Shown: piece after piece, positions 11,911 through 35,731 of the stretch
Position numbering within the stretch: the first letter of the stretch is position 1
Layout of the letters: each line of letters opens with the position of its first letter
From: Eledone cirrhosa
Lineage: Eukaryota
Direction: 5' to 3'
NCBI GenBank assembly: GCA_964016885.1
Contig: CAXHJY010001185.1
Span: 939 to 64,938 of the forward strand
DNA: 64,000 bases
The notes under the pieces: generated by a model
The model's input: only the letters and a program-made list of their open reading frames with translations
Database searches by the model: none
Told to the model about the DNA's origin: nothing
Position numbers and translations under genes: made by a program

Positions 11911-12764
11911 GAGGCGGATTTTCAGGTCTTTACGAGCTTGAGATCGTTATATATATATATATATATATATATATATATATATATAACAAAGGAATAGCCG
12001 TCCAGAAATAGCCGTCGAAACGGCTTGAGCTCTACCGTCGGGGTCATACTTTTTCACTATATATATATATATAATATAGTTTATTATAAAATAACAAGAG
12101 GCTGGACTGATGTAATTCCTTAAGGTTTTTTATACTATGAACATTTCAATGTACTATGAACATTTCAATTCAGTATGAATCCGGTGACATCATCAGGTAT
12201 TCCATAATTTAACGAAGGATATAATAGACACAATCCAAGGGGCTGAAAAGCAGAGAGATGCCCAATTTGAGAAGGCATTAAGTCGTGTGCTCTCCCTAAT
12301 ATTACATCAAGGTTGACTATACGGAATGACCAGTTCTATCCAGTGGTGAACCAACAAACCTAAATATATATATATATATATATGTAATAGGAACCAGTAA
12401 GACCCCAACATATCGATTTAAAATAATAAATCAACAAAGACGAACTGTATTGCCAAGAGGCTATAGCCTCTTGGCAATACAGTTCGTCTTTGTTGATTTA
12501 TTATTTTAAATCGATATGGACAAACTGTAGTATAATAATTAGTATACTTCAATCTGGCTAAATTTTTCTTTTGCAATATATATACAGATGTGTTGGTATC
12601 TGTGTTTCATCACATACATATTAGTTTATACACGGCTCAGTGGGTATTTTCCTCCTTCGAGCTAATTCCATTGTAAAAGAATTCATTACCTTATTAATAT
12701 ATATATATATATATATATAGTGACGAAACATAAGTCAATTGCATGAACTCATAATCCTTTATTT

Positions 12765-12820
12765 ACTGCCATATATATTTCGATGATAGCCATTGAATGG
12801 CTATGACCTCATCAGGCAGT
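12765..12820 (-). ncRNA. Type I hammerhead ribozyme motif, probably inactive (G at the cleavage position)
   Basis: Minus strand: ACTGC-CTGATGA-GGTC-ATAGCCAT-tca-ATGGCTAT-CATC-GAAA-TATATA-T-G-GCAGT. All stems are present, but N17 is G. Confidence 0.7.
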
Positions 12821-14104
12821 TAGTCAGTTCTTAGATATGCCAGCTCTGTGTTTATAGTGTTGATGGTATCAGAGCCTTGTATATATATATATATATATAT
12901 ATATATATATATATATATATATATATATATATATATATATATATATATATATATACATACCTACCTAATTACCTACCCACCTACCTATATTTTACGTTTT
13001 TATTGTATGTAAACTTCCCCCTTTGTATTTGTCCCCTTCTTTTGTGCCCCTGTGGCTAATAAAGAAACATATTTGTCTGTCTGTCTGTCTGTCTGTCTGT
13101 CTGTCTGTCTGTCTGTCTGTCTGTCTGTCTGTCGCTACCAAATTACCATTTCTCTTAGCACAAAGTGGTTGCCACATAAACTTGTTTTCATTTTCTTATT
13201 AAAAGTTTACACACACACACACACACACACACACACACACACACACACACACACACACACACACACACACACACACACACACACACACACACACACACAC
13301 ACACACACACACACACACACACACACACACACACACACACACACACACACACACACACACACACACACACACACACACACACACACACACACACACACAC
13401 ACACACACACACACACACACACACACACACATATGTGTGTGTGTATACACACACACATATATATATATATATATATTTATATATATATATATATATTTAT
13501 ATATATATATATATATTTATATATATATATATATATATATGCATACATACATATATTCAAATATATACACGCACAAACACTCACAGTGGCACTCTCTCTC
13601 TCTCACAGACACACATATATATATATATATATATATATATATATGTGTGTGTGTGTGTGTGTGACACATATACATGTATCCATGTAAGTTAAGTATGTTT
13701 AAGACATGTCAAAATGTCTTCACAAAAGATGTCACATAGTTAAACAATAGAAGGGGCCATTCACACCACACACCAACATTTACATACACACACACACATA
13801 GCACACACGTACTCGTTTACACACACACACACATATATAATATATATATATATATATACGTATACATACATATGTATATATATATATATATATATATATA
13901 TATATATACACATATACATAAATACATATACAAACACACATACTTATGAATACATCCGCACGCCATTAAGAAGTTGTCTTAACTACCTACTCCCCTTTCT
14001 CCTCCCACCACCACCATCACACTATCCTATGTAAACTTCTCGATTATCAAAAATGAATGAACTGCTTCAATAGACAAACAGTGTTTTCTGCTAATGGACC
14101 GGAT

Positions 14105-14560
14105 GGTAGTGTGGTGGTGATGGTGGTGGTATTGGTAGTGATGGTGGTGGTAGTGATGGTGGTGTTAGTGGTGTTAGTGGGGATTGGTGGTGTTGGTGAT
14201 GGTGGTGGTATTGGTGGTGGTATTGGTAGTGGTGGTAGTGATGGTGGTGGTAGTGGTGTTGGTGGTGATGATGGTGGTGGTGGTGGTGGTGGTGGTATTG
14301 GTAGTGATGGTGGTGGTAGTGATGGTGGTGGTAGTGGTGTTGTTGGCGATTGGTGGTGGTGGTGGTGGTGGTGGTGGTGGTATTGGTAGTGATGGTGGTG
14401 GTAATGATGGTGGTGGTAGTGATGTTAGTGGGGATTGGTGGTGATGGTGGTGGTGGTAGTGATGGTAGTGATGGTGGTGATGGTGGTGGTAGTGGTGTTG
14501 GTGGTGGTGTTGGTGTTGGTGGTGTGGTGGTAAAGGTTGTGGTGGTGGTGGTGGTGGTTG
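14105..14560. repeat. (GGT)n/(ACC)n-type trinucleotide low-complexity tract
   Basis: Similar tracts at 10520-11200, 33828-34275, 51130-51505 and 56265-56585. (TTGTG)n at 52640-52950; pure (CA)n at 13209-13431. Confidence 0.9.
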
Positions 14561-14788
14561 TATATATCGATACGTATATGTCAAAATGGAACATTAGGCT
14601 CGGATTAAAGATAAACATAAGTGTAGAGACGAACAAATCCTCTCTACACCCCACAAATATATATTTAGCAGCCTTGTTTCCTTCAAATGTTAACACACAC
14701 ATTAACACTCCTGCTAGACACACACGCAATCAGAAACATGCATATGGACGTCTGAATATGTATGTATATACATATATACATATTATGT

Positions 14789-14972
14789 GTGGATTGGCAG
14801 TATCGGTAGAGAGTCGGACGCCATGCTTTCCAGCATAGTTACGTCCCTTTACGGTCTGAGTTCAAATCCCGTCGAGGTTGACTTTGCCTTTCATCCTTAC
14901 GGGGTCGATAAAATAAAGTACCAGTAATGTACTGGGTAATTGCTGGCCTTGTGCCTAAAGTAGAAACAATTA
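14789..14972 (+). mobile_element. tRNA-derived SINE family A (full length)
   Basis: A box (TGGCAGTATCGG), B box (GAGTTCAAATCC), central GCCTTTCATCCTTACGGGGTCGATAAAATAAAGTACCAG and tail GGCCTTGTGCC..AGTAGAAACAATT. About 15 copies or fragments in the window. Confidence 0.88.
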
Positions 14973-32700: not shown

Positions 32701-32795
32701 TAAAATAAATAAAATTTAAAAAAGTAATAAAATAAAATGAAAGGATTAAAATAATAACAATAACAGCAACAACAATAATAACAATAACAATAATG

Positions 32796-33018
32796 ATTGT
32801 TTCTGATATAGGCACAAGGCCAGAAATTTGAAGGGGATTGGCAGAATCGGTAGAGCGTCAGACAACATGCTTCGAGGCATAGTGTTACGGCCCTTTACGT
32901 TCTGAGTTCAATTCCTGTCGAGGTTAACTTTGCCTTTCATCCTTACGGGTGTCGATACAATAAAGTACCAGTAATACACTGGGATAATTGCTGGCCTTGT
33001 GCCAAAAGTAGAACCCAT
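32796..33018 (+). mobile_element. SINE family A preceded by an inverted 3' fragment
   Basis: Full plus-strand copy at 32836-33018; inverted tail at 32796-32835. Confidence 0.8.
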
Positions 33019-35223
33019 TATTATTAAATAAAGAAACCATTGTCGTTGTTATTGAATAAAATATAAAATCAAAAGATGAAAAATTCAAGACTGTGTTTGA
33101 CGCCGGAGGGGTTTGAACTCGCAGTCGTTGTATCGCTGGGTTTATTGTTGTAGAGCTAATTATGTTATTGGGAGCCTATTATGGTTAGACACCTCCCTCA
33201 TCTACCTAACCTTCTAGCCACTCTTCCCCTCCATCAGACCTTCCTTCCATATAGACCGGCTTCTCTGTCTGTCTGTCTGTTTGTTTGTGCCTGCCTGCTT
33301 GTCTGTCTGTCTGTCTGTCTGTCTGTCTGTTTGTAATTACTCCTCATAAACAGACACATACACTTTCTCTCTGTATCTATCTCTCTCTCTCTCTCACACA
33401 CACTCTCTCTCTCTCTCACACACTCCCTCTCTCTCTCTGTTATACACACATACAGACACATACAAAAAAACCCTCTCGTCCTCTTTCTTTATTCCTCCCT
33501 CTCTCTCTCACCCTTCTCTCTCGCTACCCCCCTCTCTTTATTCCTCTCTCTCTCTCTCTCTCTCTCTCTCTCTCTCTCTCTCTCTCTCTCACGCACAAAC
33601 TCTCGCTCTCTATATTCATCGCTTGCTCTCTCTCTGTTTCTCTCTTACACAAACAATGTTTCCATCGGTCTTTGCAATTGTTAATACTATCTGACGGTCA
33701 CAACTCCAGGTAGAAGGAACAATGTGAAATAAAGTGTCTTGCTCAAGGACACAACGTATCTCCGGTCCGGGAATCGAACTCACAACCTCACGATTGCGTA
33801 TCGAACTCAGCCACGCGCTTTCAAGGCCACCACTATCACCACCACCACCACCACCACCAGCACAACCACCAGCACCACCACCAGCTCAACCACCATCACC
33901 ACTACCACCACCATCACCACCACCACCATCACTACCACCACCACCACTAACACCAGCACCATCACCACCACCACCACCACCACCACCACTATCACCACCA
34001 CCACCATCATCACCACCACTAGCACCACCACTACCCCCCCCCCCCCCCCATCACCACCACCACCACCACCACCACCACTAACACCAGCACCACCACCACC
34101 ACCACCACTATCACCACCACCACCACTACCCCCCCCACACCATCACCATCACCACCACCACCACCACTAACACCAGCACCACCACCACCACTATCACCAC
34201 CACCACCATCATCACCACCACTAGCACCACCACTACCACCATCCCCCCCCACCATCACCACCACCACCACCACCAATAAACATCAAGAGACAGACAAGAC
34301 ATGTTTATTACAGTTGACATTCTACCTCAACATATATTTGTCAACACATTTTAAGGTGGAAGACTTTCTTTCGTTTTAAACGGAATCGTTTATTAAAATA
34401 CACAGTGTGACCACATTCTACACACTGTGGCAAGATGAGAGCATGATGGGGCTGAATATATATGTGGGTATATATATATATATATATATATATACATTTG
34501 GGGGGTGGGGGGACACTCTGTATATATATATATATATATAATTTATATATTGGCTTGTCAAGTATGAAATTTGTCTTTTTTCTACAAATTTCATACTTGA
34601 CGATCCAATATATGTGTATGTATATATATATATATAGAGAGAGAGAGATAGATAGACCGACAGACAGGCACACACACACACACACACACACACACACACA
34701 CATTATTATTATTATTACATCAATATATAACTGTAAATGTTGTTAAACGTCTTTTTATGAGCCGAGAAGTGTTTTAGTTTCCCTCTTTCTGGCCGCCATA
34801 TTTCGTTCCTTGTTTCCTTGTTACTCTCTTTCTCTTTCCTCTTTAAACATTTGTAATCCTATATTTATCTATCTATTCAATTCTTTCTTTTTTTCTGCCC
34901 TTCTTTCCTCACTTCTTTCTTCTGTTTTTCTTTCTTTTTTTGTTTCTTTCTCTCTTATTTATTTAATGTCGCCATTTTACTTAAATGTTATAAACCACAA
35001 AATGGCGAAAAAATACAAAGAACACAAACTCCCCCCCAAAATTGGGGTTTTTTATTGCATTCAATTGCAATTTTATTTTAGCTGCTCTTGTTGTTGTTGT
35101 TGGTGGTGGTGTTGGTGTTGTTGTTGTTGTTGGTGGTGGTGTTGGTGGTGTTACTATTATTGTCGTTGTTGATGTTGTTGTTATTGTTCTTAGAATTATA
35201 TGATAGACACAGTTATTATTATT

Positions 35224-35530
35224 ATTGGCAGAATCGGTAGAGGGTCGGACGCCATGATTTGCAGCGTAGAGTTATGTCCCTTTAAGTTCTGAGTTCAAAT
35301 CCCGCCGAGGTTAGCTTTGCCTGTCATCAGTACGGGGTCGATAAAATAAAGCACCAGTAATACACTGGGATAATTGCTGGCCTTGTGCCAAAAGTAGAAA
35401 CAATTATATATATAAGGAAAGATATGTGTTACGGGGTCGATAAAATAAAGAACCAGTTATGCACTGGGGTCGATTTAATCGACTTTCTCCCTCCCCAAAT
35501 TGCTGGCCTTGTGCCTATAGTAAAAACCAT
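35224..35530 (+). mobile_element. SINE family A plus a tandem 3' fragment
   Basis: Full copy at 35224-35405; 3' fragment at 35429-35530. Confidence 0.85.
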
Positions 35531-35731
35531 TATTTTCCATTACTATTATTTTATTCTAAACTAATGTATGTTGCCCGAATCCATTGTAATCTATGCAAAA
35601 ATATAATAATCACGTTCTTTCTCTCTTATCTACCCTTTTCTTGTTTTCTTCTTTTTTTTCAGCTCACTTCCGATGAAGGAACAGCGTCTGAAACGGTAAA
35701 GCTCTTTTCAATCTATATCAATATGTATGTA

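What the first reader, a model, noticed from the sequence alone, without database searches (positions are those of the whole stretch)
12130..35702. A hidden, diverse population of hammerhead ribozymes in the Dmrt intergenic region
Seen: the pattern stem I-CTGA(T/C/A)GA-stem II-GAAA-palindromic hexamer-TH-stem I' recurs on both strands in at least five different sequence contexts. Well-formed copies are at 12765(-), 15070(+), 19689(+), 20396(+), 22252(-), 28757(-) and 28920(+). Decayed copies are at 12130-12203(-), 18148(+), 19346(+), 29234(+), 29678(-) and 35667(+). Stem II sequences differ completely but keep pairing, and the stem III hexamers are all self-complementary (TATGTA, TATATA, CGATCG, CGCGCG). 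Known: Penelope-like elements and retrozymes carry minimal type I hammerheads whose palindromic stem III acts through dimers. Inference: this genome hosts several distinct ribozyme-bearing retroelement families that target (TA)n, at roughly one motif per 2 kb in this stretch, and these families may be uncatalogued.
Basis: partly seen in the sequence, partly recalled or inferred. Interest (0 to 1): 0.8.

Follow-up and report, generated by a model that had tools for sequence, protein, structure and literature searches.

The report
Penelope-type hammerhead remnants in (TA)n repeats
Between two Dmrt genes lie seven short insertions, each ending in a TA repeat, that carry hammerhead self-cutting RNA motifs (five copies with a perfect core, four with one core change); they are most likely dead tail fragments of Penelope-like jumping genes, a known kind, and one high-copy family appears to carry an unusual C at core position 4.

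Summary
The motifs are real but fewer than claimed. Five sites have a perfect type I hammerhead core with three helices (15081+, 28931+, 28806-, 22309-, 29756-); 200 local shuffles gave a mean of 0.005. Four have one core change (12815- G17; 19693+/20399+ G4; 29240+ C4). 19346 is a truncated half; 12196, 18148 and 35670 are not confirmed. They form 7 independent insertions of 6 sequence families, about one per 3.4 kb, not one per 2 kb. Public reads show families A and D are high-copy, and many A copies run straight into (TA)n. Minimal dimer-type cores, (TA)n ends, 5' truncation, inverted arms and a partial tandem match published Penelope-like elements (Cervera 2014; Craig 2021, which lists a (TA)n-targeting, hammerhead-bearing Octopus element). 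No RT or GIY-YIG frame was found in the window, so clade is unassigned. Cleavage is untested. Two 'decayed' calls were wrong: 29756 has a perfect core with an 8-bp helix III, and family D's majority letters repair helix II while C4 persists. Verdict: new members of a known kind; modest interest, mainly from the position-4 variants.

The parts
14995..15266 (+). Family A insertion, (TA)n on both sides; perfect type I hammerhead, core 15081-15119, helix I 7 bp, helix II G.U/G-C/A-U + C.C mismatch + 4 bp, helix III palindrome ATATGTAT
28707..28866 (-). Family A inverted arm (160 nt, 97% complementary to 28871-29030), perfect hammerhead core 28806-28768, ends at (TA)n without the 3' tail
28871..29120 (+). 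Family A direct arm, perfect hammerhead core 28931-28969, helix I 12 bp, with about 95 nt extra 3' tail; no majority difference among the rows shown for 28867-28979 in public reads
22212..22360 (-). Family A2 (relative of A): perfect core 22309-22260, same helix III and helix I 3' strand, unrelated helix II sequence that still pairs (3 bp + C.C + 3 bp)
12720..12880 (-). Family C insertion inside (TA)n: core 12815-12770 with G at position 17, predicted inactive copy; helix I 5 bp, long helix II
19345..20700 (+). Family B partial tandem (unit about 710 nt) inside (TA)n: 5'-truncated half hammerhead 19345-19469 (N17 19455), cores 19693-19806 and 20399-20512 with G at position 4, U.U at 10.1-11.1, 95-nt branched helix II, palindrome ACGATCGT; the only same-strand pair able to form an intramolecular dimer
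29180..29372 (+). Family D insertion: core 29240-29318 with C at position 4, palindrome ACGCGCGT; high-copy family whose majority letters restore helix II
57151..57260 (+). Second family D copy, 5'-truncated inside helix II (3' half of the hammerhead only), ends in (TA)n; outside the finding's coordinates
29545..29915 (-). Family E insertion: perfect core 29756-29685, extra C before G10.1, 8-bp helix III beginning ACAG and ending CTGT as in Hydra-clade hammerheads, probable 7-nt duplication; predicted to fold as a monomer
12130..12203 (-). Unconfirmed: both core halves present, helix I 3 bp, no helix II, 20-nt duplication
18148..18175 (+). Unconfirmed: CTGAAGA + extra A + 4-bp GC helix II, but GACA for GAAA, no UH and no helix I
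35663..35699 (+). Unconfirmed: CCGATGA...GAAA with 3-bp helices; alternatively a 33-nt exon between splice-like signals

Best explanation
These are type I hammerhead motifs carried in short insertions that end in (TA)n, and they are most likely the 3'-terminal (pseudo-LTR) fragments of several Penelope-like retroelement families, left by copying that likely starts at a nick in a TA repeat and stops or folds back after 150-400 bases. Mechanism, step by step. (1) Inferred from PLE biology: a master element encoding RT and a GIY-YIG endonuclease is transcribed from a tandem; the hammerheads of two pseudo-LTRs pair through the palindromic helix III and cut after U-H, releasing the unit RNA. (2) Inferred: the endonuclease nicks (TA)n and RT copies from the RNA's 3' end. 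(3) Shown: the hammerhead lies 90-300 nt from the (TA)n end, so almost every truncated copy keeps it, which explains the density. (4) Shown as structure, inferred as cause: copying ends early, restarts (family B partial tandem) or folds back at a hairpin (family A 160-bp inverted repeat whose apex hairpin is also present, shortened, in the 15081 copy). (5) Predicted: most copies here are inert. A, A2, C and D are single or on opposite strands, a transcript through 28715-29030 folds into one long duplex, and C has G17. Only B (same-strand pair, would release about 706 nt) and E (stable helix III) could cut without a partner transcript.
For: Enrichment over shuffles. Helix II keeps pairing across unrelated sequences, and A, A2, C and D share 3 bp + a pyrimidine mismatch at the 4th pair + a distal helix (D from majority letters). 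A subfamily seen in 157 X22 reads and 4 X1 contigs has a longer loop II with a 6-bp distal helix (loose end behind 28950). (TA)n: 8 of 9 confirmed cores have (TA)5+ within 300 nt downstream against 49% of random positions, and all 7 insertions end so; loose ends behind 29025 are (TA)n in 164 X22 reads and 21 X1 contigs. 5' truncation, partial tandems, inverted 5' copies and a tail at one end only are the PLE signature in PMC8557442. Minimal palindromic hammerheads, mostly single, some opposite-strand pairs 100-700 bp apart, thousands per genome: PMC4209133. Hydra-1_Obim: Octopus, (TA)n, hammerhead about 100 nt from the 3' end. Family E's extra nucleotide before G10.1-C11.1 and ACAG...CTGT helix III match Hydra-clade rows in File S2.
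Against: No RT or GIY-YIG hit in 90 of the 92 filtered stop-to-stop frames of 45 aa or more that I scanned in 11.2-36.5 kb, and the upstream ORF of no family was seen, so the PLE origin rests on RNA motif, architecture and target only. No family matches the Octopus Hydra or Naiad elements in PMC8557442. Rfam hammerhead models gave no match. Family A's palindrome is weak (-2.2 kcal/mol) and its fold z-scores are modest (-2.25 and -0.95). The double-hammerhead fold of B is 10.6 kcal/mol above the minimum-energy fold. [quoted passage not shown] (TA)n is so common here that adjacency alone is weak.
Confidence: 0.8

Rival explanations
1. The families are non-autonomous hammerhead retroelements (SINE-like or retrozyme-like masters of 150-700 nt) that borrow PLE proteins, rather than truncated ends of coding elements; family B's 710-nt unit would be cut out by its two hammerheads and could circularise.
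For: Both A insertions begin at the same hairpin; no coding frame in the 400 nt upstream of B's core; B is a head-to-tail repeat with one hammerhead per unit; non-autonomous PLE derivatives and non-LTR retrozymes exist (PMC8557442; PMC7229834).
Against: 553 X22 reads and 86 X1 contigs run over the ends of the laid stretch while strand-change joints at the apex are rare (1 contig, 3 reads), which suggests many A copies continue 5' (the table does not split the two ends). B is a partial tandem with unequal 3' ends, 710 nt, with a non-canonical core, unlike the 170-400-nt canonical retrozymes.
Confidence: 0.15
2. The motifs are locally functional RNA elements regulating transcripts of the flanking Dmrt genes.
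For: Location between two Dmrt genes; five perfect cores.
Against: They are members of high-copy dispersed families, lie on both strands, are more than 9 kb from either exon, and perfect copies are simply close to the family majority, as expected of young insertions.
Confidence: 0.03
3. The pattern is chance in AT-rich, hairpin-rich DNA.
For: Three listed sites fail the structure test; a one-mismatch loose scan gives up to 6 hits in a shuffle.
Against: 0 of 100 shuffles give any perfect site under the strict descriptor; none of 200 reaches the observed count under the looser one.
Confidence: 0.02

Closest known systems
Minimal type I hammerheads (min-HHR) in pseudo-LTRs of metazoan Penelope-like elements (Cervera & De la Pena 2014, PMC4209133)
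   Same: Type I topology, palindromic helix III without a stable stem, many sequence families per genome, mostly single copies, some opposite-strand pairs, variable helix II; a bulge within helix II as in the D. virilis variant.
   Different: Helix I up to 12 bp in family A (4-5 bp typical); no extra nucleotide after A9 in A, A2, B, C, D; 6-nt palindromes; position-4 variants (C in D, G in B), whereas that paper reports the U3-A8 variant; 60-95-nt helix II domains in D and B.
Hydra-clade PLEs, including Hydra-1_Obim of Octopus bimaculoides (Craig et al. 2021, PMC8557442, Files S1, S2, S7)
   Same: (TA)n insertion preference, hammerhead about 100 nt from the 3' end, near-palindromic helix III with a 1-2-nt loop; family E shares the extra nucleotide and the ACAG...CTGT helix III.
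   Different: No window family matches the Hydra-1_Obim hammerhead or flanks; no ORF here to place any family in this clade; A-D have loopless even palindromes.
Non-LTR retrozymes of coral, mussel and axolotl (Cervera & De la Pena 2020, PMC7229834)
   Same: Type I hammerhead in a non-coding AT-rich repeat; U.U at the base of helix II as in axolotl HHR_Amex2; B is head-to-tail.
   Different: Retrozymes are 170-400-nt tandem monomers with canonical hammerheads and expressed circles; here six of seven insertions are not tandem, B's unit is 710 nt, and expression is untested.
Naiad PLEs of Octopus (Naiad_Obim, Naiad_Ovul, Naiad_Omin; PMC8557442)
   Same: (TA)n target, inverted/tandem architecture.
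   Different: Naiads lack canonical hammerheads; their 3' ends do not resemble the window's families.

Membership tests
Type I hammerhead ribozyme | Core C3-U4-G5-A6-N7-G8-A9, G12-A13-A14-A15.1, U16.1-H17 in type I order | tested here: met
   Met at 15081, 28931, 28806, 22309, 29756; one deviation at 12815 (G17), 19693/20399 (G4), 29240 (C4)
Type I hammerhead ribozyme | Helices I, II and III around the core | tested here: met
   Pair tables; folds. Not met at 12196 and 18148
Type I hammerhead ribozyme | Site-specific Mg2+-dependent self-cleavage | not testable with these tools
   Needs in vitro transcription
Type I hammerhead ribozyme | Match to Rfam hammerhead models | tested here: not met
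   No hammerhead family at gathering score in 64 kb or at E up to 10 in 28700-29950; so not members of the Rfam alignments
PLE minimal hammerhead (min-HHR) | Palindromic helix III/loop 3 allowing dimer formation | tested here: met
   Self-duplex -2.2 (A, A2), -3.2 (C), -10.0 (B), -13.3 (D) kcal/mol; E has a monomer helix instead
PLE minimal hammerhead (min-HHR) | Extra nucleotide between 9 and 10.1 and G10.1-C11.1 pair | tested here: inconclusive
   Both in E; G-C without extra nucleotide in 28931, 28806, C, D; A-U in A2; U.U in B
Penelope-like elements | ORF with Penelope-type RT and GIY-YIG endonuclease | tested here: inconclusive
   No Pfam RT/GIY-YIG hit in 90 frames scanned; absence is expected in 150-700-nt truncated copies; no genome was held to extend them
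Penelope-like elements | 5' truncation with partial tandem or inverted 5' copy, tail at one end only | tested here: met
   A inverted pair with tail on one arm; B partial tandem
Penelope-like elements | Insertion into microsatellites, (TA)n in Hydra/Naiad clades | tested here: met
   7 of 7 insertions end at (TA)n; genome-wide loose ends at 29025
Penelope-like elements | Hammerhead near the 3' end | tested here: met
   Core-to-(TA)n distance 92-299 nt in the terminal copy of each insertion
Hydra clade of PLEs | RT/EN phylogeny | not testable with these tools
   No ORF available; only helix III likeness for family E
Non-LTR retrozymes | Tandem monomers of 170-400 nt with canonical hammerhead | tested here: not met
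   Six insertions single or inverted; B unit about 710 nt with variant core
Non-LTR retrozymes | Expressed as linear and circular RNA | not testable with these tools
   No raw RNA reads were available for this stretch

The most novel reading that the evidence does not exclude
Family D is a high-copy, successfully amplified element whose hammerhead carries C instead of the near-invariant U at core position 4 with a very stable CGCGCG dimer palindrome, and family B carries G4 with a 95-nt branched helix II: octopus-type PLEs would then use natural position-4 core variants, compensated by strong dimer pairing and a shared helix II internal mismatch, as a tuned-down cleavage switch.
Probability: 0.25. 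Interest if true: 0.5.

Novelty: new member of a known kind. Interest (0 to 1): 0.27.

Why it matters
As a phenomenon it is known: PLE tail fragments seed metazoan genomes with thousands of minimal hammerheads. The value here is a set of six sequence families, apparently not in the papers I could read, that includes natural test cases for an open question, what PLE hammerheads do given their low in vitro activity: a family amplified with C4, a same-strand tandem with G4 and U.U, and a monomer-type motif. If D amplifies with a weakened core, either cleavage is dispensable for PLE spread or dimer strength compensates; both are testable in one gel.

Tried and rejected
No genome held, so no genome-wide count. 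Rfam: hammerhead hits absent at gathering score and at E up to 10 in 28700-29950; the whole-window E-value scan showed only 150 of 960 rows, dominated by microsatellite miRNA matches. Collection scans for the family A pattern found 0 in viral contigs and 0 in metagenome contigs; the family D pattern found 0 in metagenome contigs. Pfam on 90 of 92 filtered frames (two low-complexity frames at 14094-14835 left out): only a C2H2-like hit at 22737-23033 below cut-off and a weak PEN-2 hit. Expression: no RNA holder listed; the one run guessed to be RNA (X16) gave only short AT-rich matches at 28972-29046 and none over a core; this says nothing for or against expression. Fifteen small-share rows were not used except X16. 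X5 (organism label B) holds 28867-29025 with one other letter, but it may be a mixed sample, so I claim no second species. U3-A8 core variant: 0 sites. Motifs from Hydra-1_Obim and Naiad_Ovul: no real match in the window. A longer-protein search with the DM domain did not name the organism; 'octopus-like' rests on my recall of octopus SINEs and microsatellite content. Lunse et al. 2017 (RNA Biol 14:1499), the paper most likely to list small PLE hammerhead variants, is not held, so position-4 variants may already be in print. Family T as a permuted hammerhead: no downstream CUGANGA found by eye; rejected.

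
Full report
Setting. The window is animal DNA rich in (TA)n, (CA)n and SINE-like repeats. A DM-domain exon starts at 2895 on the minus strand (PF00751) and an exon that I recognise from recall as the DMA domain of a second Dmrt gene lies at about 49000-50009, also minus, so the finding lies between two Dmrt genes. 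I take the organism to be an octopus from recalled SINE sequences; no call named it (one search did not help). No genome was held.

Observation. A strict type I descriptor (perfect core, helix I at least 4 bp, helix II at least 3 bp, palindromic or paired helix III) finds 4 sites in 64 kb: 15081+, 28931+, 28806-, 22309-; each of 100 shuffles that keep microsatellites and local dinucleotides gave 0. Allowing one core change gives 6 sites against a mean of 0.36 in 25 shuffles; loosening helix I to 3 bp gives 8, one of them a chance hit at 50616, and shuffles reach up to 6. A second descriptor, tuned after seeing the sites, gives 5 perfect cores (adding 29756-) against 0.005 in 200 shuffles, and 3 cores with a non-U at position 4 (19693, 20399, 29240) against 0.02. 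12815 has G17. 19693/20399 read CGGATGA with U.U at 10.1-11.1. 12196 lacks helix II, 18148 lacks helix I and UH, 35670 has 3-bp helices and splice-like borders.

Independence. Self-BLAST and alignments group the sites: A (15081; 28806/28931, arms of one 160-nt, 97% inverted repeat), A2 (22309, shares 23 of 24 nt around helix III), B (one partial tandem, 92.7% between units), C, D (second, truncated copy at 57151-57260, 80%) and E. That is 7 insertions of 6 families in 23.6 kb. All 7 end at (TA)n; 8 of the 9 confirmed cores have (TA)5+ within 300 nt downstream, against 49% of random unmasked positions.

Copies elsewhere. Twenty of 24 listed runs hold part of 28867-29372, the best 45% of its words. 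Four were laid at 80% likeness. X1: 3358 contigs; X22: 3142 of 12,467,656 raw RAD reads, depth about 960 at the A core and 720 at the D core. This would be of the order of a thousand copies each for a genome of a few Gb; the tool warns that depth is not copy number and the library is not random. Among the 41 difference rows shown (95 not shown) none falls in 28867-28979, so the 28931 copy is close to the family majority. Many reads stop fitting at 28979-28982, just after helix I, so subfamilies share the hammerhead and differ downstream, as A2 does. Behind 29025, 164 reads and 21 contigs go on as (TA)n, the same end as the inverted arm. A subfamily (157 reads, 4 contigs) has a longer loop II whose distal helix grows to 6 bp. 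For D, majority letters at 29248 (C, 91-98%), 29249 (T, 93-99%) and 29300 (C, 87-98%) turn two wobbles into G-C pairs and, with G at 29304 (52% in X1, 70% in X5, but only 163 of 759 X22 reads), remove a mismatch, giving 8 of 9 pairs in helix II; A/G at 29302 keeps pairing. Position 29241 (C at core position 4) is not among the rows shown, the weakest of which reaches 58% in some run. If rows are ranked by share, which the tool does not state, C4 is carried by a large part of the family and is not private decay. Helix I of D is short (2 bp in the window copy; G at 29237 in many reads with C-rich 3' letters suggests 3 bp). X1 may be the source sample of the window and is not independent support; X22 is another study.

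Structure shared between families. A, A2, C and (by majority letters) D all have three pairs, then a pyrimidine-rich 1x1 mismatch at the fourth position of helix II, then a distal helix, with unrelated sequences. E has the extra nucleotide and G10.1-C11.1 pair typical of PLE motifs, an 8-bp helix III and 7 of 8 helix I pairs; its minimum-energy fold is the three-way junction (z -3.3); removing a probable 7-nt duplication would leave a palindrome with a 1-nt loop, as in Hydra-clade rows of PMC8557442 File S2. B's 95-nt helix II domain folds as an 8-bp stem with two hairpins (z -1.98); its double-hammerhead fold costs 10.6 kcal/mol over the minimum fold of 861 nt. A transcript through the A inverted repeat folds as one duplex.

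No coding part. Pfam on 90 of 92 filtered frames found no RT or GIY-YIG. Rfam has no hammerhead match. Scans of viral and metagenome contigs were empty.

Comparison with print. PMC4209133 (read parts 1-2 of 4: abstract, results, discussion, start of methods) describes thousands of heterogeneous minimal hammerheads per metazoan genome, mostly single and attributed to truncated PLEs, opposite-strand pairs 100-700 bp apart, palindromic helix III, no monomer activity and low dimer activity. PMC8557442 (passages; supplement searches and parts 1, 2, 24, 52 of 59) gives the PLE architecture (5' truncation, partial tandem, inverted 5' copy, one-sided tail) and lists Hydra-1_Obim, an Octopus (TA)n-targeting PLE with a hammerhead, and three Octopus Naiads. 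None matches these families by eye or by short-motif search (line breaks in the FASTA could hide a motif). PMC7229834 (parts 1-3 of 6) defines retrozymes and a U.U helix II base in axolotl. PMC3088659 (passages and section 8) notes that U4C occurs in a viroid, lowers in vitro activity yet allows infectivity, and that U10.1-U11.1 is tolerated; 'U4G' does not occur in its text. PMC6765202 and PMC6466107 (passages) summarise dimer cleavage. PMC6962438 (passages) counts 235 Rfam Hammerhead_1 hits in giant squid; PMC8967140 (passages) reports Penelope expansions in octopus. PMC10085705 (passages and section 15) was read for permuted forms. Lunse et al. 2017 I saw only as a reference. Searches for octopus or cephalopod hammerheads and for U4C returned nothing describing these families, but Repbase, Dfam, non-open papers and most supplements were not searched, so 'uncatalogued' stays open. 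Earlier AI notes on other genomes reached the same reading; they are not evidence.

Mechanism and verdict. Shown: motifs, helices, family structure, (TA)n ends, high copy number. Inferred: origin as 3' ends of PLEs by endonuclease nicking at (TA)n, 3'-primed reverse transcription, early truncation and fold-back at hairpins; dimer cleavage in the master elements; inertness of most copies. Untested: cleavage, expression, clade. It works like, and most likely derives from, PLE pseudo-LTR hammerheads (0.8); formal PLE membership awaits an ORF. New members of a known kind, interest 0.27; the position-4 variants are the one lead worth a bench test.

Noticed in passing
Copies carry what looks like a hammerhead 3' half (GAA, 5-bp helix III with three different loops, U-H), but all that reach it begin 15-20 nt upstream of GAAA and none has CUGANGA. 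May be a seventh family truncated in loop II.
   Followed up: partly
window 35620-35701 (+): 40-nt polypyrimidine tract + CAG, 33 nt without a stop in one frame, then GTAAAG: a possible micro-exon, or a PLE intron acceptor next to a degenerate hammerhead.
   Followed up: partly
window 15054, 28904, 22350, 19654, 20360: A splice-donor-like G|GTATG or G|GTAAG lies 27-41 nt upstream of the core in A, A2 and B (background 0.49 per kb); GGGTATGTCA is the only upstream block shared by A and A2. The hammerhead may sit inside the pseudo-LTR intron. Post hoc, weak.
   Followed up: partly
PMC8557442 File S5, 3' ends of Naiad_Ovul and Naiad_Obim; not in the window: The 'half core' there reads by eye as a non-circularly permuted hammerhead in SGC order: 5-bp helix III and 6-bp helix I both perfect and directly followed by CTGATGA, helix II only 2 bp. 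Such forms are known from metatranscriptomes (PMC10085705). Unchecked lead.
   Followed up: no
window 16157-16229, 16486-16558, 17293-17365 (-): Three tRNA-Val(AAC) genes with equal scores within 1.2 kb, each with a T-run terminator.
   Followed up: no
window 2215-2895 (-) and 48990-50009 (-): Two Dmrt genes in tandem: DM exon of one and DMA-type exon of the next; the long frame of the latter seems shifted in a GC-rich repeat, possibly an assembly error.
   Followed up: no
window 28600-29915: Five insertions (T, A inverted pair, D, T, E) stacked within 1.3 kb, separated by TA-rich runs: a microsatellite insertion hot spot.
   Followed up: partly
window 12409-12518, 17723-17798, 19924-19968, 58540-58720: Frequent local fold-back duplications (perfect palindromes of 45-180 nt) in unrelated sequence, including SINE copies.
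   Followed up: no
window 22737-23033 (+): Frame with a C2H2 zinc-finger-like end (Pfam E 5e-05, below cut-off), probably a LINE remnant.
   Followed up: no
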